A stretch of 64,000 nucleotides of DNA from an uncultured Candidatus Peribacteria bacterium. Lineage in GTDB: Bacteria; Patescibacteriota; Gracilibacteria; UBA4473. Numbering within the stretch: the stretch's first letter is position 1; the number at the start of each line of letters is the position of its first letter. The position numbers were made by a program, and so were the translations under genes. Under the pieces are notes generated by a model that was not told where the DNA came from, searched no databases, and worked only from the letters and a program-made list of their open reading frames with translations. Below are positions 5,301 through 57,601 of the stretch, one piece after another. The DNA is taken from NCBI GenBank assembly GCA_964509975.1, contig CAZDZO010000001.1:4006-68005 (forward strand), in the 5' to 3' direction.

Positions 5301-6685
5301 CGGAAAGTCAAGTAGTCACCATCCATGATTGATTCTGCAGATACTTGTTCACCTGAAACGTACAAAGCGACGTTTTCAAGATTATCTTCAAGTTCAGCTG
5401 TACCATCATTTTTGAAAGTAACCGCTCGTAGTTCAACATCTTTGTTCGTGTTAGACCCATTAAGCAATCGGAATTTACCGATCTCAATGAAGTTGTCTCC
5501 CACATCGATAGTTGTGTTTGATCCCAAGCTTGAGAAAGTCAAAGTTGAAACTTCATAGTCAGCAACTTCCATTTCTTCCCCTTCAATTGGAAAGTCTCCT
5601 ACAACGTTAACAGCGCTAGAAGCGACGTCATCCGCACTAACCAAAGCCATTCGACTGTGGTGTCCTACGTTTTTGTCGTCATCTCCTCCTGAGTTACAAC
5701 TACCAACACAAGTGTATTTAGCAGAAGCCACTACATCAGCGATGAGTGTTTGTCCTGCAGGCACTACTACTGGTGGGTTGAATCGAAGCTCAACAATGTC
5801 GTCGTTGTTAATAGATTTGTCGTTTCCAACTTTGAATCCATCAATTTCGAGCCATACATTATCGAAGTCGTCGTTATCTCCCAATCCCAAACGAGTGTAT
5901 GTCATAGAAGAAACTTCTACGTCAGAGTCGTCTGAAGCTGTGAGTTCAACTGTCAAGTAAGGTACTGAAGTTGAGTTGTAAGGAACGTTTGTTCCTCGTG
6001 GAGTCAAATCTGAAAGGGTAACTTCAAGAGTTCCTTCAGATGGTCCAATAATAGGTGCTACAACAAGTTGTGAGTTGTATGTAATGTGTGCAGTTTCAGC
6101 ACGAGTCACAGCGTTAGCTGGACCGAATGTACCGTCACCGTATCCACGCATCAACCCGTTGTTGTATGCTGTTTCAACGTATCCGTAAAACCAGTCGCTA
6201 TCAGAAACATCATCAAAGTGAGGTGCTCCTGAAAGGTCTTGATCAATCTCGAATGCGTTTACAACCATTTTCGCAATTTCAACTCGGTTGATACCAACTC
6301 CTGGTCGGAAAAGTCCGTCCGGGTATCCGTTGATCCATCCGTAGTTGTACATTGTTTCAACATAGTCGTAATACCAAGCGTCTGTTGATACGTCTGGGAA
6401 GTGAGGACCTCCTGTTGTATCAAAGTCTACGCCTGAAGCGAGAACGATGATTTTTGAAACTTCTGCCCGATTCAATTGTCGGTTTGGTGCAAAAGATCCA
6501 TCATCATTTCCGCTCAAAACCCCTTGGTCCATAAGCTCTTCTACAGCTTCTTCGGCCCAAGATGGGATTTCTGCTGCATCAGTGAATGGCAACATCGCAC
6601 TTGCTACTGGAGCAAAGATTGTGAATGCCATAGCTACGAAAGCTACTGATGCAACGCTTTTTTTAAGTTGACTAAATAAGTCCAT
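2363..6685 (-). CDS. S-layer-type surface protein with signal peptide and three N-terminal SLH domains
   Basis: ATG at 6685 gives the signal peptide 'MDLFSQLKKSVASVAFVAMAFTIFAPVASA'. Three SLH repeats follow ('FTDAAEIPSWAEEAVEEL..', 'FPDVSTDAWYYDYVETMY..', 'FDDVSDSDWFYGYVETAY..'), then about 1200 aa rich in T/V/A/D and likely beta-rich. The ORF track starts further upstream at a TTG. Confidence 0.8.
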   Translation of the reverse strand: MDLFSQLKKSVASVAFVAMAFTIFAPVASAMLPFTDAAEIPSWAEEAVEELMDQGVLSGNDDGSFAPNRQLNRAEVSKIIVLASGVDFDTTGGPHFPDVSTDAWYYDYVETMYNYGWINGYPDGLFRPGVGINRVEIAKMVVNAFEIDQDLSGAPHFDDVSDSDWFYGYVETAYNNGLMRGYGDGTFGPANAVTRAETAHITYNSQLVVAPIIGPSEGTLEVTLSDLTPRGTNVPYNSTSVPYLTVELTASDDSDVEVSSMTYTRLGLGDNDDFDNVWLEIDGFKVGNDKSINNDDIVELRFNPPVVVPAGQTLIADVVASAKYTCVGSCNSGGDDDKNVGHHSRMALVSADDVASSAVNVVGDFPIEGEEMEVADYEVSTLTFSSLGSNTTIDVGDNFIEIGKFRLLNGSNTNKDVELRAVTFKNDGTAELEDNLENVALYVSGEQVSAESIMDGDYLTFRLDNGVTGGYVLEDGDSKIFSLRADIVSAEASDTIIFKIDNYEDIVGVEIGTSFGVKAIDSSGNNAEDSYATLSTYTIDSGDLNVSRDPSSLGNQEYSAGSNDVVMLTARLVVDQPLLVDGVYIDVASGSETGGNGSATTLAQMNAVFDNFRMFLNDQLVDTENDFAYKSGTTAVVTNYTLNFNTTFEIAGTSILKVVANVADAAADGDKLKLEIASADFQSPEYISTGDQVADSGLLGSATGSFVTVQDSIVTVTETSGLSDGDKLVAGVDDVTFMELTMDNNDSGDVNVTSMTVGANTDVNTVHSTYGVSGSARSYENFTLAVFVDGTQQGSAKNLDETTGKATFNDLSVVIPSASQKEFVVVVDTIEASASIVTGSTTAAVADTSVTVSTANAALLTVGDVLDVVENVDPTTAVGTLTTTDRALAVTAINTTTGVITTTGTVAVHGAAVAGTAGVTTMTVDTIMANTTTVTLTDDVPNTLCVITFTTGATSDATCDGGVASVQVGGTVAADAALIRAAAATLTGYTISGATDEVIFTEAATPFIIGNVNSAVAVSTGAITDVNTTAGVATETAHTATLKHQLELDLEDVDADNVENGQVVTVTDNGVLAISTSNEVDGTAFEIVSSGTLTVSLDSTVASDILIAGQSNVEVLKVRFNAADDEVQIKDLYIENDLTASPYAGDRMDFKLYNEAGQLIQEETMAGGSLHFEMANADRIRVPKDDSTFVIVKADIRNISKANQTGAKLQLALDADNATHAGVEAVTAATGDDITKPTAGWGDAVGQVYVAYNTALSISPAATQPSMNLPSADSTEFYRFTITADSADNAEIGHVTMTVSLNGLGFSGVAALTTQRVVDGSPDVEQSFTTAASSAIADDDTSAVVKVTLTGERLAAGESRTYAVFTSLTDELGGSAENSDGVTVTLERDTAYEAPGIKSTKSTDTVAWSDESDPSHSDTTADWLNGYLLDVDTNGKRLQK

Positions 6686-7094
6686 TTTAAGCGTTTTTAA
6701 TAAATAGTAATAATCGCCCGCCATAAGCAGGCGAGTGAATTTGTTTTCATTTCTCTCTAGAAAAGAGGTCTTCAAGCGAGTTCTAAATGAGTATCCCAGA
6801 ACTCTCGACTGTCTCTTCCGGCCACGAGTTTCAAAGACCGAGATCTTTTAGCGCGCGATAGAATGGTTATTGAAAGCCCCCTTTCGAACCATTTTACAGG
6901 CGAGACGGGAACCCCGGCTGGGGGCAAGCCGTCTAAATCTTTGGAACCCTACACGGAGAGCGGAAAAAGTCAAGTTTTTCTAACACTCCGCCGCTAGAAA
7001 ATTCCAGTTATTCAAACGGACGATTCGTTACTTTGTTACGCTGTTTTAGACTTTTCTTGTTGACAGGGTCTCTAATTTGTTTTCTGGGACTCTT

Positions 7095-8405: not shown

Positions 8406-10847
8406 CTAATAACTCAACGCATCTCTAAACTCTTGTCGGGTCACTTCTCTTCCAAAATCAACACTTCGTCCTGTCACTTTCTTCACCATCGCCGTTGCAT
8501 CGCGCGGTATCACTCCTGCTGTCGGATGAAAGAATGGAGCAATTGAATACCCATCTCGATAACTCAGCAACGCTGCGGAGAAAAACCAATCTCGAGAACT
8601 GACATCTGAAAAAGGATTTTTTCCGGGCATTATTCTCGCGCGTTCTATTGTATAAACGAATGTCGGGACGCCTTCCATTTTCACGTCCTTGAGTCGAAAG
8701 GTAAGTCCTGACAGATATGGTTCATAAAGAAAATAAAACATTCCCGCCCGTGACAATGTTCTATCAGGAAACGCTATTTTTTCTCCATGCTGTTGTCTCA
8801 TATATCGGTACAACACTTTATTATCAGGTCTGACTTCCGTTGGATGCATTGTCTTTGTATTGGGCTCATACCCAGGATACCATTGAGAAGCAGCGACTCT
8901 TTTTTCATAAGAATCAAGTGACACTGTTCTGTTTTGGTATGTACTATTTGGCGTTGGGTTGTCTTGGGGATTTACTGGATCGGCATTGAGAACATATTTC
9001 GAAACCCACACCGGAAAGTGCAACAAATCCTCATTTCCGAATCGATCAATCACCCGCAAAGAAATTTGTTTTTCTCCGGGAGTTGTAAATGTTTTTTTCA
9101 CTTTCTCAGATCCAACGACCACTTTTACTCCCTTGGAAATCAGATCACTTGTTCCACGATAATCAAAATCCCACGCGTACCTGAGTTCTTGTCCGACACT
9201 GTCAGATGCATCAAATTCAAAAACTGTCTTCGTGTCTCCATATCGTCGATTCGCTTTTACACGAGCTTTAACGGATTGCGTCTCTGGAAACACCGTAACC
9301 ATACGAGCCACAGCGTGTACTTTTCCACTTGAATCTTGTGTTTGCATTCGTGCGACATATTGTCCCGCTTCTCTATATCGCCATTCAAATGAAGTCAGGT
9401 GTCTGAATCGATTATCCCATTTTCCGTCTCCATCAGCGTCGAATCGCACCTTTATTCGAGAGTTTGGTGTTTGAGAATCTTGTATCTTTGGAAAGAAATG
9501 CACTTTTTGCCCTACGTAAATATATCGCTGATCTACGGTAAAATTTCCATGAGGTGCTGTACTCGCCACCACTTGTAGAGGGACTGTTGCATCTGTCGAA
9601 ACAAGATCTCGGTTTTGCACCTGCACAACTGGTTTATATTTCCCTTGTCGAGAGAAGACATGCTCTACTCGTGAGTTATTATGAAAAGGAGTATCCCAAT
9701 TTCCATCTCCTTCAAAATCCCATCGGTAGGTAAACCCACCACTTCCACCACTCTGTTGACGAATGCTGGCAGTGAGCACCACTTTGTCTCCGGCCACTAC
9801 CTTAAAAAAAGTTTGTTTTTCTTGTCCAGAAGTAAAGTACGTTCCTCGTGTTCTATTTTGTACACGTAATTCTGCTCGATAATCGAGCGGGTCTTCTTTC
9901 GTTTCCACAATAACGAGTGTCTCTTCGCATTTTGGTTGTGCTCGATCATAACAAGTCCGCACGCGCACTTCGTGTTTTCCTGGAGCATCAAACTTTTTAA
10001 ATACCACATCTTTTCCTTTGATAAATTGTTCCCCTGCAAAACCCCACTCCATCCATGCATGTGCTGGAACTCGAGAATTTGAAGCATCAAATCGAAACAC
10101 GGTATCCTCCGTAAATCCCTTTTTCCCAGGAGAAACATCTACAATCGGAGCAACTACTACGGGAGATGATATCCTCATTTTTGGCCACGTTTCCCTCAGC
10201 ATTGTTCGACGAATCGCTGCACCTCCCTTTGAAGACAAATTCTCAATTCCTCGTATTCGCTTCACCGTTCCGTCTACAAATTTCACTTCCACCGTCGGTG
10301 AAACCTGTCCCACCTCATGAAGGGAGTAGGTGTGAGTGACAATCTTTTGTCGTGAATAAGATGTATCAAATCGTCCATCAGAATTAAAGTCCCATCGAGC
10401 TTGCACCGTGTCTTTGTCTTCCGTTCTCGGTAATGACACTTTGAGTTCAAAGTACGCTGGTTCTCCGGCCCTAATCTTTGTTGGCCGCACAGAAATCCAC
10501 GCTTTTCTATAAATATCTCCGACAACTTTATACGATCGATATGTTGACTGTATTTGCGACGTGTTTCGTTCTCTCACCTGGAGTCGAGCCCTCTGTGTTC
10601 CAATATTCATTGGAATGTATTTTTGACGAGATTTCGTAGACCAGTCTGTCCATGATTCTCCTCCCTTAAATTGGAATCGATATTCCAGTCCACCTTTGCG
10701 TCCTTGGGAGTTAAGAGAGTCTGACGCATCAAATGCAAACTCCTTGGCAATCTGCCCAGTCGCCGGACTGACGGTTAAATTCGCCGTCGGCAGGGTTGAT
10801 GCCCACGCAGTGTTGCAGAAGAAAAAGGAGAAAATACTCAAAATCAT
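8406..10847 (-). CDS. secreted PKD-repeat protein with C-terminal SLH-like domain
   Basis: Signal peptide 'MILSIFSFFFCNTAWA'. Repeated PKD-type motifs ('FAFDASDSLN', 'FRFDASNSRV', 'YRWDFEGDGNWD', 'FEFDASDSVGQELRYAWDFDY'). C-terminal 'FSDVSSRDWFFSAALLSYRDG'. Confidence 0.7.
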   Translation of the reverse strand: MILSIFSFFFCNTAWASTLPTANLTVSPATGQIAKEFAFDASDSLNSQGRKGGLEYRFQFKGGESWTDWSTKSRQKYIPMNIGTQRARLQVRERNTSQIQSTYRSYKVVGDIYRKAWISVRPTKIRAGEPAYFELKVSLPRTEDKDTVQARWDFNSDGRFDTSYSRQKIVTHTYSLHEVGQVSPTVEVKFVDGTVKRIRGIENLSSKGGAAIRRTMLRETWPKMRISSPVVVAPIVDVSPGKKGFTEDTVFRFDASNSRVPAHAWMEWGFAGEQFIKGKDVVFKKFDAPGKHEVRVRTCYDRAQPKCEETLVIVETKEDPLDYRAELRVQNRTRGTYFTSGQEKQTFFKVVAGDKVVLTASIRQQSGGSGGFTYRWDFEGDGNWDTPFHNNSRVEHVFSRQGKYKPVVQVQNRDLVSTDATVPLQVVASTAPHGNFTVDQRYIYVGQKVHFFPKIQDSQTPNSRIKVRFDADGDGKWDNRFRHLTSFEWRYREAGQYVARMQTQDSSGKVHAVARMVTVFPETQSVKARVKANRRYGDTKTVFEFDASDSVGQELRYAWDFDYRGTSDLISKGVKVVVGSEKVKKTFTTPGEKQISLRVIDRFGNEDLLHFPVWVSKYVLNADPVNPQDNPTPNSTYQNRTVSLDSYEKRVAASQWYPGYEPNTKTMHPTEVRPDNKVLYRYMRQQHGEKIAFPDRTLSRAGMFYFLYEPYLSGLTFRLKDVKMEGVPTFVYTIERARIMPGKNPFSDVSSRDWFFSAALLSYRDGYSIAPFFHPTAGVIPRDATAMVKKVTGRSVDFGREVTRQEFRDALSY

Positions 10848-13828: not shown

Positions 13829-14079
13829 AGGGAATTTCGGGTAGTTTTTAAGTGTTCTTTTTTGACGTATCTAAATCCTGTTGAACGGCTATCCCCCGTG
13901 ATTTCTTCGTCCGAAGAACAGGAGCGCGAAGAACCCTTTTGGGGAAGTAGATCGCGTCGTTTTTGTTTTAACGTTGAACGTTATCAACTAATTAAGTAAC
14001 AATTCGAGATGGTACCGTCCCGCCTGTCGGGGCTCTCGTGAAGATTCCCTTCGCTTATTTTTTGTTTACAATATCTTGT

Positions 14080-17000
14080 ATGAAAAACATTTTTCCCTCG
14101 TTCGACCCTCAAAAATCAATTGCTGAACACGAAACCGATATTTTGAAGTTTTGGAAAGAAAACCAAATTTTTGAAAAATCTGTTAATCGTCGTGCCAAGC
14201 GCAATGAATTCGTGTTTTTTGATGGGCCTCCGTTTGCAACGGGAACACCGCATTATGGACACATACTAGCGGGAGCAATTAAAGATGTGATTCCACGGTA
14301 CAAAACCATGCAAGGATACCGCGTCAATCGAAAATGGGGATGGGATTGCCACGGAGTTCCGGTGGAATTTCAGGTGGAAAAGGAACACCGCATTGGTGGA
14401 AAACCGGGTATTGAAAAAATGGGAGTTGGGAAGTTTAATGAACTCTGTCGAAGTGTCGTCTTGCGATGTGCTGACCAGTGGGAATCAACCGTTGATCGCA
14501 TGGGACGATTTGTGAATTTCAAAGACGATTACAAAACCATGGATCCCGAATTCATGGAATCGGTCTGGTGGGTTTTTGGGGAATTATGGAAAAAGGGACT
14601 CATTTATGAAGGAGAAAAAGTGGTCTCCTATTCTCCGAAGCTCGGAAGTCCTCTTTCTAATTTTGAAGCAAATTTAAATTATAAAGATATTGATGATCCA
14701 GCGGTAACAGTAAAGTTTGAGCTAACAGAAGAATCGAAAACATATTTCTTAGCTTGGACGACGACCCCTTGGACGCTGTTATCGAATTTAGCCTTAGCGG
14801 TGAATCCGAAACTCGAATATGTGAAGGTAAAAAACGAAGAATCTGGAGAAAGTTATTGGCTCGGAAAAGGCGTACTTGAAAAATACGGCATCACTCAAGA
14901 GGGAGAATATACGGAATTTTGGAACGAAGTTGAACGACGAAAAGGAAAAGATCTCATCGGAAAATCTTACACGCCACTTTTTCCTTTCTTCGAGAATCAT
15001 GAGAATGCCTTCCAAGTTCTCTCGGCTGATTACGTGTCGGCAGAAGAGGGGACGGGGATCGTTCATCAGGCCCCGAATTTCGGGGAAGACGATGCCAAGG
15101 CCTGTCATGAAAATAACATTGGACTTCTTGAAAATCCGATTGATGAGCATGGATTTTTTAATGACAAAATTACTGAACTCAAGGGAAAATATTTTCGAGA
15201 TGATCCGGAAGTAGAAGGTTCCGTGGATGACAATGCAAACAAGTGGGTCCTTGATAATTTGGGGACGAAACTCTTTATGAGAAATCAAATTCGACACTCC
15301 TATCCACACTGTTGGAGAACAGATTCTGCATTGATGTATCGAGGAATTAAAACGTGGTTTGTTGATGTGCAGAAAATTAAGAAAACTATTTTAGAACAAA
15401 ACCAAAACATTAATTGGGTGCCAGAACATTTGAAAGATGGTCGATTTGGGAAGATGCTTATTGATGCTCCGGATTGGGCGATTAGTCGAAACAGATACTG
15501 GGGAACTCCAATTCCTGTGTGGCGATGTGACGCGTGTGGAGATATCGAGGTGATGGGATCGCGCGCAGATCTTGAGAAAAAAATTGATAAAAAAGTTGAG
15601 GATCTCCATAAACATTTTGTTGATGATATGGAGTGGGGATGTGCGAAATGTAAGGGGAAAATGAAACGTATCGAGGAAGTGCTCGACTGTTGGTTTGAGT
15701 CTGGGGCGATGCCGTATGCGAGTCAGCATTATCCGTTTGCGAACAAAGAAAAGGATGTTGAACTTCGAGAAGTAAAAACAACGAAAGACTGGGAAACGTA
15801 TCATGAGCTTGTAAAAACCGAACTTTTTGAAAGACTTCTTCCTTCTCTTGTTTATGACAAAAATTATCCTGATGGAATAAACCCAAAGACCGTTTCCAAA
15901 ATCTTGTTTTTGAAAGATGAACCGATTGGAGTTCTTTCCTATGGTCCCGCTGATGCATATAATTCATTGAAAGAATATGCCCCCAAGGATTCTCTCTTTT
16001 TACGATTCATCGCTATCAAGAAAGAGTTTCAAGGCAGAGGATTCGGTCACTCCGCCATAAAAGATTTCAAAAGTTTCGGTTACGAAAATAATTTTGAAAA
16101 TTTAATTTTAAATTCTGCTCCTGGTGCCGTAGGGTTTTATGAAAAACATGGATTTGAAAAGGATTTTTGGACAGGACATGCTGAAACAAATCCTGAAAAC
16201 ACCCCTTTTGGAAAAAAATCTGAAATCGAAAATCTGAAATCGAAAATTGCCGATTTCCCGTCTGCTGACTTCATTGCCGAGGGACTCGATCAAACACGTG
16301 GATGGTTCTACACCCTGCATGTTTTGGGATGCGCGTTGTTTGGAAAAAACATCTTCAAGAACGTGATTACCAATGGAATCGTCTTGGCAGAAGATGGACA
16401 AAAGATGTCCAAGTCCAAGAAGAATTATCCAGATCCAAATATTATTTTTGATAAATACGGAGCGGATGCGATGCGATTTTATATGCTCAATTCTCCAGTT
16501 GTAAGAGGAGAGAATTTCAGGTTCGCCGAGAACGGTGTCGCTGAAGTATTGAAACAAATCATCTTGCCACTGCGTTCGAGTTATCAGTTTTTCTCGACCT
16601 ACGCGAACATCGATAATTGGCAACCAACCAAGTTTCTCTTTGTTCGGCACGGGGAAGGCGACCATAATGTCGCTCATATTTATTCTGGAGATGTGAAGAA
16701 CAAACATCACCTGACAGAGAAGGGTCGAGCACAAATTACCGAAACCGCGAAACACATTCGAAATTTTGATGTCCTTGTTGCATCTCCTTTCATTCGAACA
16801 CAAGAGACCGCTGAGATTCTGAAAAAAGAATGTAAATTTGAAGGCGAAATTATTACTGACGATCGAGTGCGAGAACTCTTTTTTGGAAAACTCGAAGGCA
16901 AGCCCTTCCTTCCAAAAACAGAACGACTCTCAAATAAAGAAACCGAACAACCTGAAGCGGTGGCAAAACGAGTGTCTGAATTCATGTCCGATATGGCGCA

Positions 17001-18219
17001 GAAATATCCAGGAAAAACGATTGCTGTCGCAAGTCACGGAGGTGCTGTTTTGGAAGCGATTGCGATGACCAATCGTGTACCGCACGGGACAGAAGATTAC
17101 TTGCGAGTCTTCCAACCGCCTACGGGAACCGAAACCGTCGTGTTCGCCGAACCCGTTCCTCAGACCGAACTCGATCAATGGATTTTGTCTGAACTACAGA
17201 CCCTCATCGAGCAATACAAAAATCATTTCGATGCCTACGATTTAGAAGGAGCGTTGAAACTGATTCCTGGATTTATTGATAACCTAAACAATTGGTATTT
17301 GCGTCGTTCTCGTCGTCGATTCTGGGCACCTGACATGAGTGAAGAAAAACAATCTGGGTACGAAACGCTTCATCACGTACTCTTCATGGTGTCGAAAATA
17401 TTGGCCCCTGTCTGTCCATTTTTCGCGGAAGATTTGTTTCAGAAACTCGCACATGGAGAATCTGTTCACCTTACCTTTTTCCCTTTTGCGAAAAAAGAAT
17501 GGCAGAATGAAAAGATTGAAGACAAGATTCGTCTTTCTCGAGAAATCGTAAGTTTGGCCGCTGGAATCAGGGCACGAGCAAAGGTAAAACTCCGACAACC
17601 GCTTGAGAAATTACAATTCATGACCACGGACAAGGCGAACCTCGATCTTGATATTTTAAAAGAAGAGGCCAATGTAAAAGCAGTGGAACAACTCACTTCT
17701 GTTGAAGGTTTGGCTGATCGTGTTGTCCGCGTTAATGCCAAAAAAGTTGGCCCACGTCTCGGAAAAAAAGTGCAAGAAATCATTGCGAAAGGAAAATCTG
17801 GCGACTTTGAACTTTTGAAAAATGGAGATGTGAAAATTGCGGATGAGATTCTTACGGGTGAAGAATTTAGTTTTGGATTCGTTTGTGAAGAAGGGGTAGA
17901 AGCCGAAGCCACCGCTCGAACCGTAGTTATTCTCAATACAGAAATTTCTGAAAATTTGAAGTTGGAGGGATTCTCCCGAGAAGTTATTCGAGCCATTCAA
18001 GAGCTTCGAAAGAAAAAAGATTTCGATATCGCTGATCGTATTTCGATCCGGTACGCTACCGACTCGATTGCAATAAAAGACGTGTTCAAAACGTTTGAAT
18101 CGCTCATTGCTGGAGAAACTTTGGCTGAGGAAATAATTCATGGAGAGGTCAGTGATCCACTCGAAGAGCTCGATGTCGATGGGGAGAAACTGACGTTGGA
18201 GATTGCAGTAGTGGAGTAA
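14080..18219 (+). CDS. ileS: isoleucyl-tRNA synthetase with two inserted enzymatic domains
   Basis: HIGH motif 'PHYGHILAG', KMSKS motif 'GQKMSKSKKN', 'WAISRNRYWGTPIPVW' and 'AEGLDQTRGWFYTL'. ATG at 14080 ('MKNIFPSFDPQK') is preferred over the GTG at 14038. Total length about 1379 aa, versus the roughly 1000-1050 aa I expect for this IleRS type. Confidence 0.93.
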   Translation: MKNIFPSFDPQKSIAEHETDILKFWKENQIFEKSVNRRAKRNEFVFFDGPPFATGTPHYGHILAGAIKDVIPRYKTMQGYRVNRKWGWDCHGVPVEFQVEKEHRIGGKPGIEKMGVGKFNELCRSVVLRCADQWESTVDRMGRFVNFKDDYKTMDPEFMESVWWVFGELWKKGLIYEGEKVVSYSPKLGSPLSNFEANLNYKDIDDPAVTVKFELTEESKTYFLAWTTTPWTLLSNLALAVNPKLEYVKVKNEESGESYWLGKGVLEKYGITQEGEYTEFWNEVERRKGKDLIGKSYTPLFPFFENHENAFQVLSADYVSAEEGTGIVHQAPNFGEDDAKACHENNIGLLENPIDEHGFFNDKITELKGKYFRDDPEVEGSVDDNANKWVLDNLGTKLFMRNQIRHSYPHCWRTDSALMYRGIKTWFVDVQKIKKTILEQNQNINWVPEHLKDGRFGKMLIDAPDWAISRNRYWGTPIPVWRCDACGDIEVMGSRADLEKKIDKKVEDLHKHFVDDMEWGCAKCKGKMKRIEEVLDCWFESGAMPYASQHYPFANKEKDVELREVKTTKDWETYHELVKTELFERLLPSLVYDKNYPDGINPKTVSKILFLKDEPIGVLSYGPADAYNSLKEYAPKDSLFLRFIAIKKEFQGRGFGHSAIKDFKSFGYENNFENLILNSAPGAVGFYEKHGFEKDFWTGHAETNPENTPFGKKSEIENLKSKIADFPSADFIAEGLDQTRGWFYTLHVLGCALFGKNIFKNVITNGIVLAEDGQKMSKSKKNYPDPNIIFDKYGADAMRFYMLNSPVVRGENFRFAENGVAEVLKQIILPLRSSYQFFSTYANIDNWQPTKFLFVRHGEGDHNVAHIYSGDVKNKHHLTEKGRAQITETAKHIRNFDVLVASPFIRTQETAEILKKECKFEGEIITDDRVRELFFGKLEGKPFLPKTERLSNKETEQPEAVAKRVSEFMSDMAQKYPGKTIAVASHGGAVLEAIAMTNRVPHGTEDYLRVFQPPTGTETVVFAEPVPQTELDQWILSELQTLIEQYKNHFDAYDLEGALKLIPGFIDNLNNWYLRRSRRRFWAPDMSEEKQSGYETLHHVLFMVSKILAPVCPFFAEDLFQKLAHGESVHLTFFPFAKKEWQNEKIEDKIRLSREIVSLAAGIRARAKVKLRQPLEKLQFMTTDKANLDLDILKEEANVKAVEQLTSVEGLADRVVRVNAKKVGPRLGKKVQEIIAKGKSGDFELLKNGDVKIADEILTGEEFSFGFVCEEGVEAEATARTVVILNTEISENLKLEGFSREVIRAIQELRKKKDFDIADRISIRYATDSIAIKDVFKTFESLIAGETLAEEIIHGEVSDPLEELDVDGEKLTLEIAVVE
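15754..16248 (+). other. GNAT N-acetyltransferase-like domain inserted in the IleRS catalytic core
   Basis: 'LFLRFIAIKKEFQGRGFGHSAIKDF' (the Q/RxxGxG/A acetyl-CoA motif) and 'APGAVGFYEKHGFE', lying between the IleRS blocks 'HYPFANKE' and 'ADFIAEGLDQTRGWFY'. Confidence 0.8.
16627..17166 (+). other. histidine phosphatase (PGAM/cofactor-dependent mutase superfamily) domain inserted in IleRS
   Basis: 'FLFVRHGEGDHN' (RHG motif), 'LTEKGRAQ', 'VASPFIRTQETAEIL', 'ELFFGKLEGKP' and 'IAVASHGGAV', lying between 'FFSTYANIDNW' and 'LDQWILSELQ'. Confidence 0.8.
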
Positions 18220-42075: not shown

Positions 42076-42217
42076 ATTTTTCCTTAATTTTAGATGCAAA
42101 AACGCATCTTTTATTGTATGGGTCTCCATCCAAAAACGCAAAAAATATCATTTAAAAAGATTTGACATTGCCCCTAAAGAGCAGAAGAATAAAATGCGTT
42201 TTTATCCCTTTCGTAAT

Positions 42218-54435: not shown

Positions 54436-54822
54436 ATCTTTCACCTTCCCTTTTATTAGCACAATATATTCTACACAACCCACAAAGGTTACATCCCTTT
54501 CTCCGTCTAATTGTTTTTTTACTTTTGGGGGAAGAATAATCCTAGCTGTCTTATCTTTCCGAGGTTCGTAAAGTCTTGAATAAACGTCGTCAAAAAAATT
54601 ATTTCCTGCATAAATTGTTCGTAGTATTTTTTCACTCGGAACAATGATAGCCAAGATCTCTTGTTTTGAATTCTTTAACTCTTCAATTAGATGTTCCTGT
54701 TCCCCTATCCACACAAGAAAATCCTTTTCCTTCCCCCATTCTACTGGAATCGAAATTCTATATTTTGTATCAACCCTTCTTTCCAGGCTTCCTACATATT
54801 GCTCGTTTCCTTCTTTTTTCAT
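54418..54822 (-). CDS. MraZ-like double SpoVT/AbrB-domain protein
   Basis: Two 'D.K.R..iP' type repeats: 'VDTKYRISIPVEW' and 'KDKTARIILPPKV'. Not followed by rsmH or fts genes. Confidence 0.5.
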   Translation of the reverse strand: MKKEGNEQYVGSLERRVDTKYRISIPVEWGKEKDFLVWIGEQEHLIEELKNSKQEILAIIVPSEKILRTIYAGNNFFDDVYSRLYEPRKDKTARIILPPKVKKQLDGERDVTFVGCVEYIVLIKGKVKDLLDKE

Positions 54823-54925: not shown

Positions 54926-57532
54926 ATGGATAAAGCTTACGATCATAATTCAACAGAAGACGGGATTTATAAATCTTGGGAAGACTCTGGAAATATGCGT
55001 GCCGACAGTGATTCTGCAAAAGATCCTTTTACTATTGTACTGCCTCCTCCTAATGTGACAGGGCAGTTACACCTCGGACACGCAGCAATGCTAGCCATAG
55101 AGGATATCATGATCCGATACCAAAAGATGACCGGCAAAGAAGTGCTCTGGTTGCCTGGAACCGATCACGCCGCAATTGCAACCGAGAATGTGGTACTCAA
55201 GCACTTGGGAATTGCGAGCCGAGAAGAAATGGGACGAGAAGAATTTTTGGGAGAATGCCGAAAATTTGCCCAAGAAAAACATGATCGCATCGTGCATCAG
55301 ATCAAGAAAATGGGAGCGTGGCTTGATTGGTCGCGAGAAGCTTACACATTTGATGACGAACGAAATCATTCGGTAAATACGATCTTCAAGCAATTGTACG
55401 ACGATGGACTTATTGTTCGTGGACACAGAATGATCAATTGGTCAGTGGGAGCACAATCCGTGATTGCTGATGACGAAGTTGAATGGGACGATAACGAAGG
55501 TGAATTCTACGACATTCAATGTGGACCATTTATCATTGGAACATCTCGTCCTGAAACAAAATGTGCTGACAGTCCGGTAGTATTAAATCCAGCAGCTGAT
55601 TATGTGAAAGCGGAAAAAAAGAGTGACAAATCTCCGCTCATTATTTCCAAACACAAATGGGATGATGGGGTGCATTTTCCGAATGAATATGATTTGAAAG
55701 AAGTAATAAAAGGAAAGAACCTCGAAGGCATGGAGTTTGAATTTGAAACGTATGCGGGAAAGAGAAAGTTCTATGTGTTGGTGGATGAGTGCATCGATCC
55801 AAAGTTTGGAACGGGAGCCATGACGATTTCAACATCACACTCATTGGAAGATTATGAGCTTGCTCAGAGACACGATTTACCGATGTTACAAAAGATTGAT
55901 TTCGAAGGAAAAATGACGGCTGTTTCTGGTCCGTGTGAAGGCATGACCGTGGCGCAGGCGCGGAAAGAGTCTGTAAAACACATGGAGAAAAAAGGACTCT
56001 TGGTTTCTCGAATTCCATATTCTAATCGTGTACCAAAGTGTTACCGAAGTGGGTGTGTTATTGAGCCGATGATTTCTCCGCAGTGGTTTGTAAGTGTGGA
56101 GAAAGAATTTACGGACAAATTTACAGGGAAAGAAACGACCCTCAAGAAGCTCACACAAGAAGCGATTCGAGAAGGTGATGTAAAAATTATTCCGAAGCAA
56201 TTTGAAAAGACCTATTTCCAATGGATCGACAACTTGCGCGATTGGTGTATCTCTCGACAGATTTGGTGGGGCCATCAAATTCCGGTGTGGTATGACGAGA
56301 AAGGAGGAATTGCGGCCGTTGGCGAAGCGCCTGCTGATACGAAGCTAAAACAAGACAAAGACACTCTCGACACATGGTTCTCAAGCGCCCTGTGGCCCTT
56401 TTCAACACTCGGTTGGCCTAATGAAGAAGCTGAAGATTTGAAGAAATTTTATCCAACATCTGTTCTTGAAACCGGACACGATATTCTCTTTTTCTGGGTC
56501 GCGCGAATGATTATGTTCGGACGATATGCGACAGGGAAATATCCATTTGATACTGTGTATTTACACGGAATGGTGACCGATGAGCATGGGAAAAAAATGT
56601 CAAAATCGAGGAACAATGGAATCGATCCGCTCGAAATGATTGACGAGTTTGGGGCTGATGCCGTTCGTTTATCACTGGTAATTGGAACGAGTCCAGGAAA
56701 TCCTATCCCAATTGGAAAAGCCAAGATTGGAGGATATCGAAACTTCGTAAACAAGCTCTGGAATGCGGGACGGTTTGTGCAGATGCAGATGGAAGAAAGG
56801 GAATCTGGAAGCACTGAACCAAAAAGTTTGGCTGATAAATGGATTGCATCTCGGTTTTCTGCTGTTTCAAAAGAAATTGCAACACACTTGCAAAAACATG
56901 AAATATCCATTGCGGGAGATAAAATTTATCACTTCGTATGGGACGAATTCTGCGACTGGTACATCGAAGCGAGCAAGGTAGAAAAAAATCCTGCTTTCTT
57001 GAAACACATCTTCTTAGAAATACTCAAACTCACTCACCCGCTCTGTCCATTTATCACGGAGAAGCTGTGGGGAGAACTCGCTGATGATGGATTTTTGGTG
57101 AACCAAGCATTTCCAGTTTCCAATTTCACGGACAATACAGCTGAAAAGACCTTCTCAATGACACAAGAAATTGTAACCGAAATTCGTCGCGTACGCGCTG
57201 ACAATCAATTGAATCCAAAAGAAAAGCTCTCCATTCAACTCTCTGGAGAGGTGGACGAAAGATTGATAACAACACTTGCTGGAGTGAAATTTGAAGATGT
57301 AGACAAAGCTTCTGCTACAAAAATTGTTGTAGGAAAATTGGATATATTTGTTCAAATCCCAATTGATGAAAAACGTATTGCTCGTGAAAAATCTGCTCTC
57401 GAAGCCCAAATCAAATCTCTTGAAGTTCGTCTTGGAAATAAAGGCTATGTCGACAAAGCACCAGCGCATCTAATCGAGCAAACCAAGAAAGAACTTGAAG
57501 ACGCACAAGAAAAACTACAAAAGCTTTTGTGA
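54926..57532 (+). CDS. valS: valyl-tRNA synthetase
   Basis: ATG at 54926. 'PPPNVTGQLHLGHA' (HIGH), 'KMSKSRNN' (KMSKS) and a C-terminal coiled coil. Confidence 0.93.
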   Translation: MDKAYDHNSTEDGIYKSWEDSGNMRADSDSAKDPFTIVLPPPNVTGQLHLGHAAMLAIEDIMIRYQKMTGKEVLWLPGTDHAAIATENVVLKHLGIASREEMGREEFLGECRKFAQEKHDRIVHQIKKMGAWLDWSREAYTFDDERNHSVNTIFKQLYDDGLIVRGHRMINWSVGAQSVIADDEVEWDDNEGEFYDIQCGPFIIGTSRPETKCADSPVVLNPAADYVKAEKKSDKSPLIISKHKWDDGVHFPNEYDLKEVIKGKNLEGMEFEFETYAGKRKFYVLVDECIDPKFGTGAMTISTSHSLEDYELAQRHDLPMLQKIDFEGKMTAVSGPCEGMTVAQARKESVKHMEKKGLLVSRIPYSNRVPKCYRSGCVIEPMISPQWFVSVEKEFTDKFTGKETTLKKLTQEAIREGDVKIIPKQFEKTYFQWIDNLRDWCISRQIWWGHQIPVWYDEKGGIAAVGEAPADTKLKQDKDTLDTWFSSALWPFSTLGWPNEEAEDLKKFYPTSVLETGHDILFFWVARMIMFGRYATGKYPFDTVYLHGMVTDEHGKKMSKSRNNGIDPLEMIDEFGADAVRLSLVIGTSPGNPIPIGKAKIGGYRNFVNKLWNAGRFVQMQMEERESGSTEPKSLADKWIASRFSAVSKEIATHLQKHEISIAGDKIYHFVWDEFCDWYIEASKVEKNPAFLKHIFLEILKLTHPLCPFITEKLWGELADDGFLVNQAFPVSNFTDNTAEKTFSMTQEIVTEIRRVRADNQLNPKEKLSIQLSGEVDERLITTLAGVKFEDVDKASATKIVVGKLDIFVQIPIDEKRIAREKSALEAQIKSLEVRLGNKGYVDKAPAHLIEQTKKELEDAQEKLQKLL

Positions 57533-57550
57533 GTATTCTCGCTTATAGAC

Positions 57551-57589
57551 TTGACAAACCACTGCCAAGTGTGGTATAATTAGGAGATA
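57551..57589 (+). promoter_or_regulatory. orphan copy of the promoter-plus-start module (TTGACA-18nt-TATAAT-TAGGAG-ATA), firing antisense into the next gene
   Basis: Core GTGGTATAATTAGGAGAT is identical to 12541-12558, but ATG is replaced by ATA and no plus-strand gene follows. Confidence 0.5.
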
Positions 57590-57601
57590 GGGGTAAATAC
57601 T

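What the first reader, a model, noticed from the sequence alone, without database searches (positions are those of the whole stretch)
16627..17166. Histidine-phosphatase (PGAM-like) domain inserted between the IleRS catalytic and anticodon-binding parts
About 180 residues between 'FFSTYANIDNW' and 'LDQWILSELQTLI' carry the full histidine-phosphatase motif set: 'FLFVRHGEGDHN' (RHG with the catalytic His), 'LTEKGRAQ', 'VASPFIRTQETAEIL', 'ELFFGKLEGKP' and 'IAVASHGGAV' (the second His). With the GNAT insertion, one polypeptide combines a synthetase, an acetyltransferase fold and a phosphatase fold, all apparently retaining catalytic residues. I am not aware of this architecture being described. 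The role is unknown; possibilities include hydrolysis of a phosphorylated inhibitor or adenylate analogue, or regulation.
Basis: partly seen in the sequence, partly recalled or inferred. Interest (0 to 1): 0.75.

Follow-up and report, generated by a model that had tools for sequence, protein, structure and literature searches.

The report
Phosphatase domain built into IleRS
An intact-looking histidine-phosphatase enzyme domain sits inside a surface loop of the isoleucyl-tRNA synthetase of an uncultured Peribacteria/Gracilibacteria-type bacterium; the same insertion is common (three loops, up to four copies) in the IleRS and ValRS of that whole group, and I found no paper that describes it.

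Summary
Window 16615-17172 (the finding's 16627-17166 lies inside it) encodes a complete branch-1 histidine-phosphatase (HP) domain: Pfam His_Phos_1 E=1.4e-25, AlphaFold pLDDT 94, Foldseek E~1e-12 to PhoE, CobC, PspA and dPGM. It replaces a loop of about 10 residues between the last catalytic-domain helix and the first anticodon-binding helix of a type-2 IleRS.

It is not an assembly artefact. The identical protein occurs on 9 contigs. dN/dS of the insert (0.03-0.09) matches the synthetase core. The catalytic set (R870, H871, N877, R920, E946, H1000) is 98-100% conserved.

106 of the 120 closest IleRS carry HP, at three separate loops and in 1-3 copies. 66 of the 119 closest ValRS carry 1-3 copies; one fragment has four. 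The same loops elsewhere hold GNAT, a PNK/zeta-like kinase, HAD or serine-hydrolase domains. The loops near the active site vary among ~90% identical proteins; the loop studied here is stable.

The substrate is unknown. My best reading (0.42) is an active, rigidly docked phosphomonoesterase acting on a defined small phosphorylated substrate. Rivals include tRNA-end healing and synthetase dephosphorylation. Nine literature searches found no description. New variant of a known kind; interest 0.72.

The parts
14038..18219 (+). ileS ORF, 1393 aa from GTG 14038. The database copy starts at ATG 14080 (M15, 'MKNIFP', 1379 aa). Type-2 (eukaryote-like) isoleucyl-tRNA synthetase.
   Evidence: ORF. TIGR00392 ileS 882.8 bits against a cut-off of 621.4. 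P0001 is 100% identical and 1379 aa; the closest solved structure is P. megaterium IleRS2.
14080..15753 (+). N-terminal catalytic half with the CP1 editing domain. HIGH motif 'HYGH' at 14251-14262. Editing motifs 'TTTPWT' at 14758-14775 and 'GTGIVHQAP' at 15049-15075. Zinc knuckle 'CAKCKG' at 15640-15657, which is the EMPTY insertion site A in this protein. 'WFESG' at 15691-15705.
15754..16272 (+). Insertion site B, here holding a GNAT acetyltransferase-fold domain (res 573-745).
   Evidence: Acetyltransf_1/7/10, E 5e-7 to 3e-6; absent from the ~90% identical P0003/P0004/P0005.
16273..16614 (+). C-terminal catalytic part with KMSKS (16402-16416), then the long helix that ends in 'FFSTYANIDNW'.
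16615..17172 (+). Insertion site C: the histidine-phosphatase (His_Phos_1, branch 1) domain, res 860-1045. The finding's 16627-17166 lies inside it.
16645..16650 (+). Codons of R870-H871 (RHG motif; H871 is the presumed phospho-accepting nucleophile).
   Evidence: R 98-100% and H 100% conserved in all three site classes.
16795..16797 (+). R920, the second phosphate-pocket arginine ('SPFIRTQET').
16873..16875 (+). E946, the presumed general acid/base ('RELFFG').
   Evidence: E 100% in classes C and A; 76% E plus 18% D in class B.
17035..17037 (+). H1000, the second pocket histidine ('ASHGG').
   Evidence: 98-100% conserved.
17173..17610 (+). Anticodon-binding helical domain (Pfam Anticodon_1), starting at 'LDQWILSEL'.
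   Evidence: the two-domain model has pTM 0.87.
17650..18210 (+). C-terminal DUF5915 domain, typical of type-2 IleRS.
54926..57532 (+). valS of the same genome (real start 'MDKAYDH'). It has no HP domain. Its site-A-equivalent reads 'EAPADTK', just upstream of 'DTLDTWFSS'. Orthologues 93-94% identical carry an HP domain of ~190 aa there.

Best explanation
SHOWN. The segment encodes a complete branch-1 histidine-phosphatase domain. It is inserted in frame into the short loop between the last helix of the catalytic/stem-contact part and the first helix of the anticodon-binding domain of a functional type-2 IleRS. The organism is a Peribacteria/Gracilibacteria-class (CPR) bacterium. The insert is translated as part of the synthetase and is under purifying selection as strong as the synthetase core. 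It keeps every residue of the phospho-histidine catalytic machinery. AlphaFold2 gives the HP plus anticodon-binding pair pTM 0.87 with no low-confidence linker, which suggests a rigid dock. It is one member of a large family of HP-decorated IleRS and ValRS: three loops in IleRS (A, B, C) and one in ValRS.

INFERRED. The domain is an active phosphomonoesterase working through a phospho-His871 intermediate, with E946 as acid/base. It acts on a defined, conserved small phosphorylated substrate of the nucleotide, sugar-phosphate or phospho-acid type. IleRS serves mainly as a permissive, always-expressed carrier that cannot be deleted. The phosphatase may be tied locally to the nucleotide chemistry around the synthetase, but it is not a step of aminoacylation itself. 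The module was probably captured from a free-standing PhoE/CobC-like gene, then kept, and spread between homologous loops of IleRS and ValRS.
For: Identity and fold.

Catalytic residues R870/H871/N877/R920/E946/H1000 are 98-100% conserved over 126 inserted copies that are only ~27% identical between site classes. The set is also intact in five of the nine ValRS-borne copies scored and conservatively or partly altered in the other four.

dN/dS of the HP is 0.03-0.09, against 0.01-0.09 for the IleRS core.

The synthetase itself is intact: HIGH, KMSKS and the CP1 editing motifs are present.

Docking: the two-domain model has pTM 0.87 and ten-residue pLDDT block means of ~89-98 across both junctions.

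The nearest structures and families are all small-substrate enzymes of ~200 aa: PhoE 1h2e, CobC 6e4b, PspA 4ij6, GpgP 4qih, the riboflavin phosphatase 9mmh, and dPGM.

The inserted domains are mildly acidic (median pI 5.8, net charge -5), unlike a nucleic-acid-binding module.

Class-C copies share their own conserved active-site-flanking residues (Y882, S883, G884, N888, H890, F949, L952, R963). This suggests one defined substrate.

An unrelated phosphatase fold (HAD, phosphoglycolate-phosphatase/PpaX-like) occupies site B in an IleRS that has no HP (P0066). This hints that phosphatase activity is what is selected.

Gene-neighbour to fusion links: the closest free-standing relative (P0270, in the 90% cluster of P0145, which is 44% identical to the insert) lies 1.1 kb upstream of an insertion-free type-2 ileS that overlaps a NUDIX gene. 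Ser_hydrolase and AAA_33/PRK nucleotide-type kinases, which are inserted in some IleRS, are free-standing neighbours of insertion-free ileS elsewhere.

Dispensability in some lineages fits an accessory enzyme rather than a step of aminoacylation. One genome has HP in neither IleRS nor ValRS (P0053 and P0280 on the same 1.02 Mb contig). The window's own ValRS lacks it.
Against: No substrate is identified; nothing here is biochemical.

Among the best 150 of 5161 relatives of the insert, every long host protein is an IleRS or a ValRS. A pure 'carrier' model explains that only through shared ancestry and homologous loops.

Tandem arrays of 2-4 copies are odd for a simple metabolic enzyme.

Sites A and B lie next to active-site motifs (WFESG/DTWFSS).

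The P-loop kinases inserted in sister IleRS are most similar to the RNA-repair kinase Pnkp1 and to PSTK.

A YbaK-type aa-tRNA deacylase abuts an insertion-free ileS.

The last three observations favour a tRNA-linked role.

The free-standing-neighbour observation comes from one lineage only. Other free-standing relatives sit in unrelated contexts.

Confidence: 0.42

Rival explanations
1. tRNA-coupled end-healing or quality control. The synthetase-resident phosphatase removes a 3'- or 2'-phosphate (or the product of a 2',3'-cyclic phosphate) from damaged or modified tRNA held by IleRS/ValRS. In sister proteins it would act together with the PNK-like kinases, or on a phosphorylated aminoacyl-tRNA.
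For: The only hosts seen are two tRNA-binding enzymes. The P-loop kinases inserted at sites B or C of sister IleRS hit the RNA-repair kinase Pnkp1 (4xrp) best: E 1e-5 and 1e-3 singly, 5e-7 as a profile. They also hit PSTK best in NCBIfam, at 38.5 bits. Kinase plus phosphatase in one polypeptide (P0060, P0084, P0085, P0090, P0098) follows the logic of T4 or bacterial Pnkp. A YbaK/tRNA_edit gene and a Ser_hydrolase gene abut insertion-free ileS. A precedent from general knowledge: the HD domain of the bacterial CCA-adding enzyme has phosphatase and 2',3'-cyclic phosphodiesterase activity.
Against: As far as I know, no histidine phosphatase is known to act on RNA ends. The domains are acidic. The kinase similarities are weak and generic to P-loop kinases: the same profile also hits APS, adenylate and guanylate kinases and CPT/zeta. 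Kinase/HP co-occurrence (5 of 5) is not above the 88% background. There is no reason why only Ile and Val tRNAs would need healing.
Confidence: 0.2
2. One reading: detoxification of a phosphorylated inhibitor, antimetabolite or adenylate analogue at its target. The HP, GNAT, kinase and hydrolase inserts would be target-tethered inactivating enzymes.
For: The inserted set (acetyltransferase, CPT/zeta-like phosphotransferase, serine hydrolase, phosphatases) resembles the classes of antibiotic-modifying enzymes. Presence and absence are patchy among ~90% identical proteins, as for accessory or resistance traits. IleRS is a classic natural-product target (general knowledge).
Against: HP enzymes hydrolyse phosphomonoesters. 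The known aaRS inhibitors that contain phosphorus are phosphoramidates or anhydride mimics. No phosphorylated IleRS/ValRS inhibitor is known to me. PADLOC and NCBIfam give no resistance or defence hit for the window protein. The site-C HP is stably inherited, not patchy.
Confidence: 0.1
3. A cis-acting protein phosphatase. The HP reverses inhibitory phosphorylation of the synthetase itself, for example by HipA/HipT-type toxin kinases, or of a partner protein.
For: The HP superfamily includes protein phosphatases (SixA, PGAM5, Sts) and toxin kinases are known to target aaRS (HipA on GltX, HipT on TrpS); both points are general knowledge. All three insertion loops flank the KMSKS/active-site region in the sequence. 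The cap between E946 and R978 is short, 32 residues.
Against: The nearest relatives are small-substrate enzymes. SixA scores only 23 bits against a cut-off of 74.5. IleRS and ValRS are not known kinase-toxin targets. No kinase gene was seen beside ileS in the window.
Confidence: 0.08
4. No function coupled to catalysis. Either it is a structural or ligand-sensing (phosphometabolite-binding) module, or it is a selfish domain that persists because an in-frame insert in an essential gene is sheltered from deletion.
For: Inserts of many unrelated kinds accumulate in the same genes. They include mobile-element domains in frame: DUF559 endonuclease, IS200-type Y1 transposase and MuF_C. Clean gain or loss occurs among close relatives. 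Some tandem copies have lost catalytic residues, such as P0189 copy 2 and P0183.
Against: The nucleophile, both pocket arginines, the second histidine and the acid/base glutamate are 98-100% conserved in three lineages that are only ~27% identical to each other. dN/dS is 0.03-0.09. That is not expected for a passenger or a pure binding module.
Confidence: 0.1
5. The organism's glycolytic cofactor-dependent phosphoglycerate mutase, fused to IleRS.
For: The best NCBIfam hit of the insert is archaeal-type dPGM (75-80 bits). Several top Foldseek hits are dPGMs.
Against: The score is far below the equivalog cut-off of 225. The domain is ~180 aa and lacks the dPGM C-terminal tail. Site-C HP also occurs in a code-25 relative (L006), from lineages in which some members lack essentially all of glycolysis (PMC8406219). 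Up to 3-4 copies per protein and copies in both IleRS and ValRS of one genome make no sense for a single glycolytic step.
Confidence: 0.05
6. An assembly chimera or frame artefact.
For: None found.
Against: The identical protein is on 9 contigs from three archives. There are more than 100 orthologues with the same junctions. GC content stays within the flank range across the insert. There is no repeat, promoter or terminator signal at the junctions.
Confidence: 0.01

Closest known systems
Type-2 (eukaryote-like, mupirocin-resistant type) bacterial IleRS, e.g. Priestia megaterium IleRS2 (PDB 8c8u/8c8v/8c9d)
   Same: The same synthetase core, the same C-terminal DUF5915 tRNA-binding domain, and HIGH/KMSKS and CP1 editing motifs.
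   Different: The solved enzyme has a loop of about 10 residues (~661-672) where the window protein has a 186-residue phosphatase. It also has no GNAT at the 'HYPF..FPADFI' loop.
Small branch-1 histidine phosphatases: PhoE (1h2e), CobC alpha-ribazole phosphatase (6e4b/6nru), PspA phosphoserine phosphatase (4ij6), GpgP Rv2419c (4qih), riboflavin-pathway HFP (9mmh); and dPGM
   Same: Fold (TM 0.72-0.78), size (~180-200 aa) and the full catalytic set RHG...R...E...H.
   Different: All of these are free-standing proteins. The insert reaches none of the curated equivalog cut-offs: dPGM_arch 80/225, CobC 70/163, PspA 52/350, SixA 23/74.5. It has its own conserved loop, 'HNVxxIYSGxxxNxHHLT'.
NCBIfam NF040702 'ileS_w_GNAT' (isoleucine--tRNA ligase, N-acetyltransferase domain-containing)
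   Same: It shows that curators already recognise an IleRS lineage with a built-in GNAT domain.
   Different: The window protein scores 279 bits against a cut-off of 1999, so it belongs to a different IleRS lineage. That family's name mentions no phosphatase.
Bifunctional proteins containing an HP domain: PFK-2/FBPase-2 (P-loop kinase + HP), M. tuberculosis Rv2228c (RNase H + CobC-like acid phosphatase; NCBIfam NF005567), Sts/UBASH3 (2H phosphoesterase + HP)
   Same: An HP domain is joined to another enzyme in one chain. NF005567 is among the best hits of the insert, at 65 bits. Sister IleRS combine HP with a P-loop kinase.
   Different: Those are end-to-end fusions, not insertions into a loop of the partner. 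None involves an aminoacyl-tRNA synthetase. The score is far below the cut-off of 326.
Polynucleotide kinase-phosphatase RNA-repair enzymes (T4 Pnkp; bacterial Pnkp1/Rnl/Hen1, PDB 4xrp)
   Same: A kinase and a phosphatase sit on one RNA-binding scaffold. The kinases inserted in sister IleRS hit Pnkp1 best.
   Different: The phosphatase of Pnkp enzymes is a HAD or metallophosphoesterase domain, not an HP. The window protein itself has no kinase. The similarity is weak (E 5e-7 as a profile) and is shared with many P-loop kinases.
Inteins (in-frame mobile insertions in essential genes)
   Same: An in-frame insert in a conserved essential gene, with presence/absence polymorphism among close relatives and endonuclease-type inserts in some relatives.
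   Different: There is no Hint/intein domain and no Cys/Ser/Thr...His-Asn junction residues. The insert is an ordinary enzyme fold under purifying selection and is presumably kept in the mature protein.

Membership tests
Histidine phosphatase superfamily, branch 1 (Pfam PF00300 His_Phos_1) | Profile score above the curated gathering threshold | tested here: met
   90.5 bits against 21.7, E=1.4e-25, residues 867-1014.
Histidine phosphatase superfamily, branch 1 (Pfam PF00300 His_Phos_1) | N-terminal RHG motif with the nucleophilic His, plus a second Arg and a second His forming the phosphate pocket | tested here: met
   R870-H871-G872, R920 and H1000 are present. They are 98-100% conserved in 126 inserted copies.
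Histidine phosphatase superfamily, branch 1 (Pfam PF00300 His_Phos_1) | Acid/base Glu downstream of the second Arg (branch-1 type) | tested here: met
   E946 is 100% conserved in classes C and A, and 76% E plus 18% D in class B.
Histidine phosphatase superfamily, branch 1 (Pfam PF00300 His_Phos_1) | Alpha/beta fold of the superfamily | tested here: met
   AF2 pLDDT 94.3. Foldseek E~1e-12 and TM 0.72-0.78 to dPGM, PhoE, CobC, PspA and GpgP.
Histidine phosphatase superfamily, branch 1 (Pfam PF00300 His_Phos_1) | Phosphatase or mutase activity through a phospho-histidine intermediate | not testable with these tools
   Needs an enzyme assay with an H871A control.
Cofactor-dependent phosphoglycerate mutase (NCBIfam NF038349 dPGM_arch; TIGR01258) | Score at or above the equivalog cut-off | tested here: not met
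   75-80 bits against 225; TIGR01258 23.5 against 81.7.
CobC alpha-ribazole phosphatase (TIGR03162) / PspA (NF045917) / SixA (TIGR00249) | Score at or above the equivalog cut-off | tested here: not met
   70.4 against 162.9; 52.3 against 350; 23.3 against 74.5.
Isoleucine--tRNA ligase (TIGR00392 ileS) | Score at or above the equivalog cut-off | tested here: met
   882.8 bits against 621.4.
Isoleucine--tRNA ligase (TIGR00392 ileS) | Class I signature motifs HIGH and KMSKS, and the CP1 editing motifs | tested here: met
   HYGH at 72-75, KMSKS at 789-793, TTTPWT at 241-246, GTGIVHQAP at 338-346.
Type-2 IleRS | C-terminal DUF5915-type domain, and closest similarity to IleRS2/MupA/MupB rather than type 1 | tested here: met
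   DUF5915 E=2.9e-29. MupA/MupB profiles score ~705 bits. PDB best hit is P. megaterium IleRS2, while type-1 structures (1ffy) score only 48 bits on the C-terminal half.
Acquired mupirocin-resistance IleRS MupA/MupB (NF000257/NF000258) | Score at or above the curated cut-off | tested here: not met
   703-707 bits against 1900.
NCBIfam NF040702 ileS_w_GNAT | Score at or above the curated cut-off | tested here: not met
   278.6 bits against 1999.
Intein | Hint domain, a nucleophile at the N-terminal junction, and His-Asn plus Cys/Ser/Thr at the C-terminal junction | tested here: not met
   No Hint/intein Pfam hit. The junctions read ...DNWQPT|KFLF... and ...PQTE|LDQW....
Pnkp-type RNA end-healing system | A polynucleotide 5'-kinase together with a 3'-phosphatase acting on RNA ends | tested here: inconclusive
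   The window protein has no kinase. Sister IleRS have P-loop kinases whose best PDB hit is Pnkp1, at profile E=5.3e-7, but generic P-loop kinases follow closely. Activity on RNA cannot be tested here.
Anti-phage defence systems (PADLOC) | A match to any defence-protein model | tested here: not met
   0 families for the whole IleRS.

The most novel reading that the evidence does not exclude
IleRS and ValRS of the Gracilibacteria-class CPR bacteria carry their own tRNA repair or quality-control enzymes. On this reading the histidine-phosphatase modules remove 3'/2'-phosphates, and in sister proteins Pnkp1/PSTK-like kinases act with them. They would work on damaged or modified tRNA (or aminoacyl-tRNA) while it is held by the synthetase. 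This would make the synthetase a self-contained 'heal-then-charge' machine, and it would be the first RNA-directed member of the histidine-phosphatase superfamily.
Probability: 0.15. Interest if true: 0.9.

Novelty: new variant of a known kind. Interest (0 to 1): 0.72.

Why it matters
Aminoacyl-tRNA synthetases are among the best-studied enzymes. Catalytic add-ons are known for them (editing domains, eukaryotic appended domains), but I found no report of a phosphatase inside a synthetase.

Here a catalytically intact phosphatase has been held inside IleRS and ValRS across a whole class of uncultured, host-dependent bacteria. It sits in three different loops and in up to four copies. It occurs alongside acetyltransferase, kinase, HAD and hydrolase modules.

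- If the phosphatase is coupled to tRNA or to the synthetase reaction, this is a new layer of translation quality control or repair.
- If it is an independent enzyme, it shows how reduced genomes pack accessory enzymes into essential genes.
- Either way, it identifies three loops in IleRS/ValRS that tolerate insertion of whole domains, which is useful for protein engineering.

The question is directly testable with one recombinant protein and an H871A mutant.

Tried and rejected
1. A word-indexed homology search with the insert alone returned only 2 hits and was uninformative. The exhaustive search replaced it.

2. A PDB sequence search of the insert gives only weak, non-specific hits (best 38 bits). 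Foldseek gives no subfamily either. Substrate assignment by homology was abandoned.

3. Intein, intron or mobile-DNA signatures at the junctions. Rfam finds only two tRNAs in the window. There are no flanking direct or inverted repeats, no promoter or terminator excess and no composition break. Rejected.

4. A strict either/or distribution of HP between IleRS and ValRS. One contig suggested it. It is rejected because several large contigs carry HP in both, and some in neither.

5. Recent intragenic duplication as the source of the multiple copies. Rejected: copies within one protein are only 16-36% identical, and the nearest neighbour of a copy is almost always a copy at the same site.

6. The '2xHP' proteins of 360-450 aa as free-standing di-domain enzymes. 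The two I looked up (P0134, P0152) are on ~1.4 kb contigs, so they are probably fragments of aaRS arrays.

7. Phage origin. There are only remote hits, at most 39% identity over partial length.

8. Defence-system membership. No PADLOC hit.

9. Glycolytic dPGM role. Judged unlikely.

10. Nine literature searches found nothing on the architecture.

11. I could not obtain model coordinates. The distance and orientation of the HP pocket relative to the tRNA path and the active site could therefore not be measured.

Full report
**1. The observation**

The window holds one long ORF, 14038..18219 (+), of 1393 aa from a GTG. The database copy (P0001, 100% identical) starts at M15 (ATG 14080) and is 1379 aa.

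Pfam splits it as follows:
- tRNA-synt_1: 35-572 and again after 746
- a GNAT domain: 609-708, E 5e-7
- His_Phos_1: 867-1014, E 1.4e-25, 90.5 bits against a gathering score of 21.7
- Anticodon_1: 1046-1191
- DUF5915: 1205-1391

NCBIfam calls the whole protein ileS (882.8 bits against a cut-off of 621.4).

An AlphaFold2 model of residues 855-1050, built on 36 homologous inserts, has pLDDT 94.3 and pTM 0.90. It matches branch-1 histidine phosphatases in the PDB at E~1e-12 and TM 0.72-0.78.

The natural limits of the insert are residues 860-1045 (nt 16615-17172). The closest solved IleRS, Priestia megaterium IleRS2, goes from '...YAKLDGYDPEQ' (665) to 'KKTKLDEWILSRL' (670-) with only a few residues in between.

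**2. Not an artefact, and under selection**

- The identical protein was assembled on 9 contigs from NCBI, JGI and ENA data, the longest 360 kb.
- GC content stays within the range of the flanks across the insert.
- There are no flanking repeats and no internal promoter or terminator signal above chance.
- Rfam finds only two tRNAs in the window.

I computed Nei-Gojobori dN/dS against three genomes labelled 'uncultured Candidatus Peribacteria' (L001-L003, 88-91% identical in the HP insert). The HP segment gives 0.03-0.09 and the synthetase segments 0.01-0.06. A second pair, L004/L005, gives 0.074 against 0.017-0.075. dS is above 1, so these ratios are rough. Even so, the insert is clearly as constrained as the enzyme around it.

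The host enzyme keeps HIGH (HYGH), KMSKS and both CP1 editing motifs.

**3. What the relatives show**

Of the 120 closest IleRS, 106 carry PF00300. They are labelled Gracilibacteria, Peregrinibacteria or Peribacteria where a label exists.

I mapped the HP domains with an HMM onto a MAFFT alignment. This revealed three distinct insertion sites:
- **Site A**: directly after the second Cys pair of the zinc knuckle ('CAKCKG'), about 10 residues upstream of 'VLDCWFESG'. It is empty in the window protein.
- **Site B**: after 'HYPFAN' and before 'FPSADFIAEGLDQTRGWF'. It holds the GNAT in the window protein.
- **Site C**: the finding.

In the top 120 there are 64 domains at C, 45 at A and 17 at B. Some proteins have two copies or all three (P0002, P0018, P0040).

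The catalytic set R870, H871, N877, R920, E946, H1000 is 98-100% conserved in every class; the only exception is E946 in class B (76% E, 18% D). The usual structural positions are conserved too (G896, S916-P917, T924, G950, E970, R978).

The classes are only ~27% identical to each other, and 33-43% identical within a class. The nearest neighbour of a copy is almost always a copy at the same site. Copies within one protein are 16-36% identical. These are therefore three old lineages, not recent duplications.

Class A is the closest to free-standing phosphatases. Class C is the most derived and has its own conserved active-site-flanking residues: Y882, S883, G884, N888, H890, F949, L952, R963.

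**4. Polymorphism and other cargo**

Among IleRS whose cores are ~90% identical to the window's, site C always holds HP, but sites A and B differ:
- empty (P0003, P0005)
- DUF559 endonuclease at A (P0004, P0006)
- HP at A (P0007)
- HP at A plus GNAT+HP at B (P0002)
- HP at A and at B (P0040)
- GNAT at B (the window protein)

P0012, only ~59% identical to the window protein, also has a GNAT at B.

Further afield, the loops hold other domains:
- Site B: a HAD phosphatase, phosphoglycolate-phosphatase/PpaX-like (P0066, which has no HP at all); a Ser_hydrolase (P0063); or an AAA_18/AAA_33 P-loop kinase (P0060, P0090, P0098).
- Site C: the same kind of kinase instead of HP (P0084, P0085).
- The CP1 region: in-frame DUF559, an IS200-type Y1 transposase or MuF_C.

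**5. ValRS as well**

I ran an exhaustive phmmer of the insert against 1.84 billion representative proteins. It gave 5161 hits at E<=1e-3 and 275 at E<=1e-10. Among the best 150, every long host is an IleRS or a ValRS. One ValRS fragment has four tandem HP domains (P0125).

Of the 119 closest relatives of the window's own ValRS, 66 carry 1-3 HP copies. In nearly all of them the copy or array ends a few to a few dozen residues upstream of 'DTWFSS', the equivalent of site A.

The window's ValRS (54926..57532) has none. Orthologues 93-94% identical have a ~190-residue HP where the window reads 'EAPADTK'.

HP can be present in both enzymes of one genome, in one of them, or in neither (same-contig pairs).

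A relative whose ileS reads through only if TGA encodes Gly also has a site-C HP. The TGA falls on the conserved Gly of LTxxG. The feature therefore appears to reach the code-25 lineages.

**6. Structure context**

A two-domain model covering the end of the catalytic part, the HP and the anticodon-binding helices (res 822-1205) has pLDDT 89.5 and pTM 0.87. The ten-residue pLDDT block means stay at ~89-98 across both junctions, so there is no low-confidence linker. This suggests that the HP is rigidly docked rather than tethered.

The tools do not return coordinates. I could not determine where the active site points relative to the tRNA.

The inserted domains are mildly acidic: median pI 5.8, net charge -5.

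**7. Clues to function**

*Homology.* It places the domain among small-substrate phosphatases and mutases but reaches no equivalog cut-off.

*Free-standing relatives.* The closest free-standing relative lies 1.1 kb upstream of an insertion-free type-2 ileS, on the same strand. It is P0270, 192 aa, in the 90% cluster of P0145, which is 44% identical to the insert. That ileS in turn overlaps a NUDIX gene. This comes from one lineage only. Other free-standing relatives sit in unrelated contexts, including a cobalamin cluster.

*Neighbours of insertion-free ileS genes:*
- a Ser_hydrolase-like gene
- a YbaK/tRNA_edit gene
- AAA_33/KTI12 and PRK kinases plus a nucleoside deoxyribosyltransferase

These are the same kinds of domain that are inserted in other lineages.

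*The inserted kinases.* Their best PDB hit is the RNA-repair kinase Pnkp1 (4xrp; E 1e-5, 1e-3; profile 5e-7). Their best NCBIfam hit is PSTK. Both similarities are weak and generic P-loop kinases follow closely.

PADLOC finds nothing. Phage genomes hold only remote relatives.

**8. Interpretation**

*Shown:* a complete, selected, rigidly docked histidine-phosphatase domain inside a functional type-2 IleRS, belonging to a clade-wide family of HP-decorated IleRS and ValRS.

*Inferred (0.42):* it is an active phosphomonoesterase on a defined small phosphorylated substrate, with the synthetase acting mainly as a permissive and indispensable carrier. The support is:
- the small-substrate relatives
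- the acidic surface
- the class-specific conserved pocket loops
- replacement by a HAD phosphatase in one lineage
- gene-neighbour to fusion links
- dispensability in some genomes

*Rivals:*
- The main rival (0.20) is a tRNA-coupled end-healing or quality-control role. It is favoured by the restriction to two tRNA-binding hosts, the Pnkp1/PSTK-like kinases, the tandem arrays and the positions next to active-site motifs.
- Inhibitor detoxification: 0.10.
- Non-catalytic or deletion-sheltered passenger: 0.10.
- Self-dephosphorylation: 0.08.
- Glycolytic mutase: 0.05. Some Gracilibacteria lack glycolysis altogether (PMC8406219).
- Artefact: 0.01.

**9. Comparison with the known, and novelty**

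The host is a member of the ileS family and of type-2 IleRS. The insert is a member of the His_Phos_1 superfamily. It is not a member of dPGM, CobC, PspA or SixA, and the host is not a member of MupA/MupB or the NCBI 'ileS_w_GNAT' family.

Proteins that combine an HP domain with another enzyme exist (PFK-2/FBPase-2, Rv2228c, Sts), but these are end-to-end fusions and none involves a synthetase (general knowledge).

Nine full-text searches found no paper on a histidine phosphatase in IleRS or ValRS. The proteins are in public databases under generic names, or in one case an automatic three-part name.

I classify this as a new variant of a known kind: a synthetase with an accessory catalytic domain. 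The scale is unusual: three loops, two synthetases, up to four copies, and several alternative enzyme cargos.

Noticed in passing
window 15754-16272: The GNAT acetyltransferase-fold insert at site B of the same IleRS (Pfam E 5e-7; only a weak RimI-like NCBIfam hit). It is absent from ~90% identical orthologues (P0003-P0006) and present, sometimes together with an extra HP, in others (P0002, P0012).
   Followed up: partly
window 54926-57532: The ValRS of the same genome has no HP domain, although orthologues 93-94% identical (P0273, P0274, P0276) carry one just upstream of 'DTWFSS'. The window reads 'EAPADTK' at the empty site (39 nt against 597 nt). The mechanical ORF starts 94 codons too early, at 54644.
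   Followed up: yes
window 16215-16242: A perfect tandem duplication of 14 nt (AAAATCTGAAATCG x2) inside the coding sequence, at the C-terminal junction of the GNAT insert ('KSEIENLKS'). Close relatives have a similar 'KIENRKSEIEN' linker.
   Followed up: no
window 14038-14080: The ORF opens at GTG 14038, but the database copy and all orthologues start at ATG 14080 ('MKNIFP'). The first 14 codons are probably not translated.
   Followed up: partly
L006 4503-6329: A 'Patescibacteria group' relative whose ileS is broken by TGA under code 11 but reads through under code 25. The TGA falls on the conserved Gly of the HP motif LTxxG. Site-C HP therefore seems to exist in UGA=Gly lineages too.
   Followed up: partly
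L031 6001-11432: The closest free-standing relative of the insert (192 aa) lies 1.1 kb upstream of an insertion-free type-2 ileS, whose stop overlaps the start of a NUDIX hydrolase gene. NUDIX genes also lie near free-standing HP relatives in two other contexts (L032/L033 and the P0151 contig).
   Followed up: partly
L024 11332-11841; L025 11109-11585; L028 4022-5989: Genes next to insertion-free ileS in related genomes: a Ser_hydrolase-like protein; a YbaK/tRNA_edit deacylase that starts 1 nt after the ileS stop; and AAA_33/KTI12 and PRK kinases plus a nucleoside deoxyribosyltransferase. Several of these belong to the same families that are inserted into IleRS elsewhere.
   Followed up: partly
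relatives P0004, P0006, P0084 (DUF559); P0085, P0059 (Y1_Tnp); P0029 (MuF_C): Mobile-element-type domains are found in frame inside IleRS: a Vsr-like endonuclease, an IS200-type transposase and the phage MuF C-terminal domain. They sit at site A or in the CP1 region. DUF559 also occurs in some ValRS (P0300, P0375).
   Followed up: partly
window 2363-6775, 8406-10847, 34708-42141: Very large predicted surface proteins: 1470 aa with three SLH domains; 813 aa with PKD domains; and 2477 aa with Laminin_G_3, fn3 and CHB_HEX_C. They would fit a cell-surface, attachment-based lifestyle.
   Followed up: no
L029/L030 6162-6833 vs window ~57532-57602: The otherwise syntenic relatives have an extra Ferric_reduct gene (223 aa) directly after valS. 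The window lacks it.
   Followed up: no
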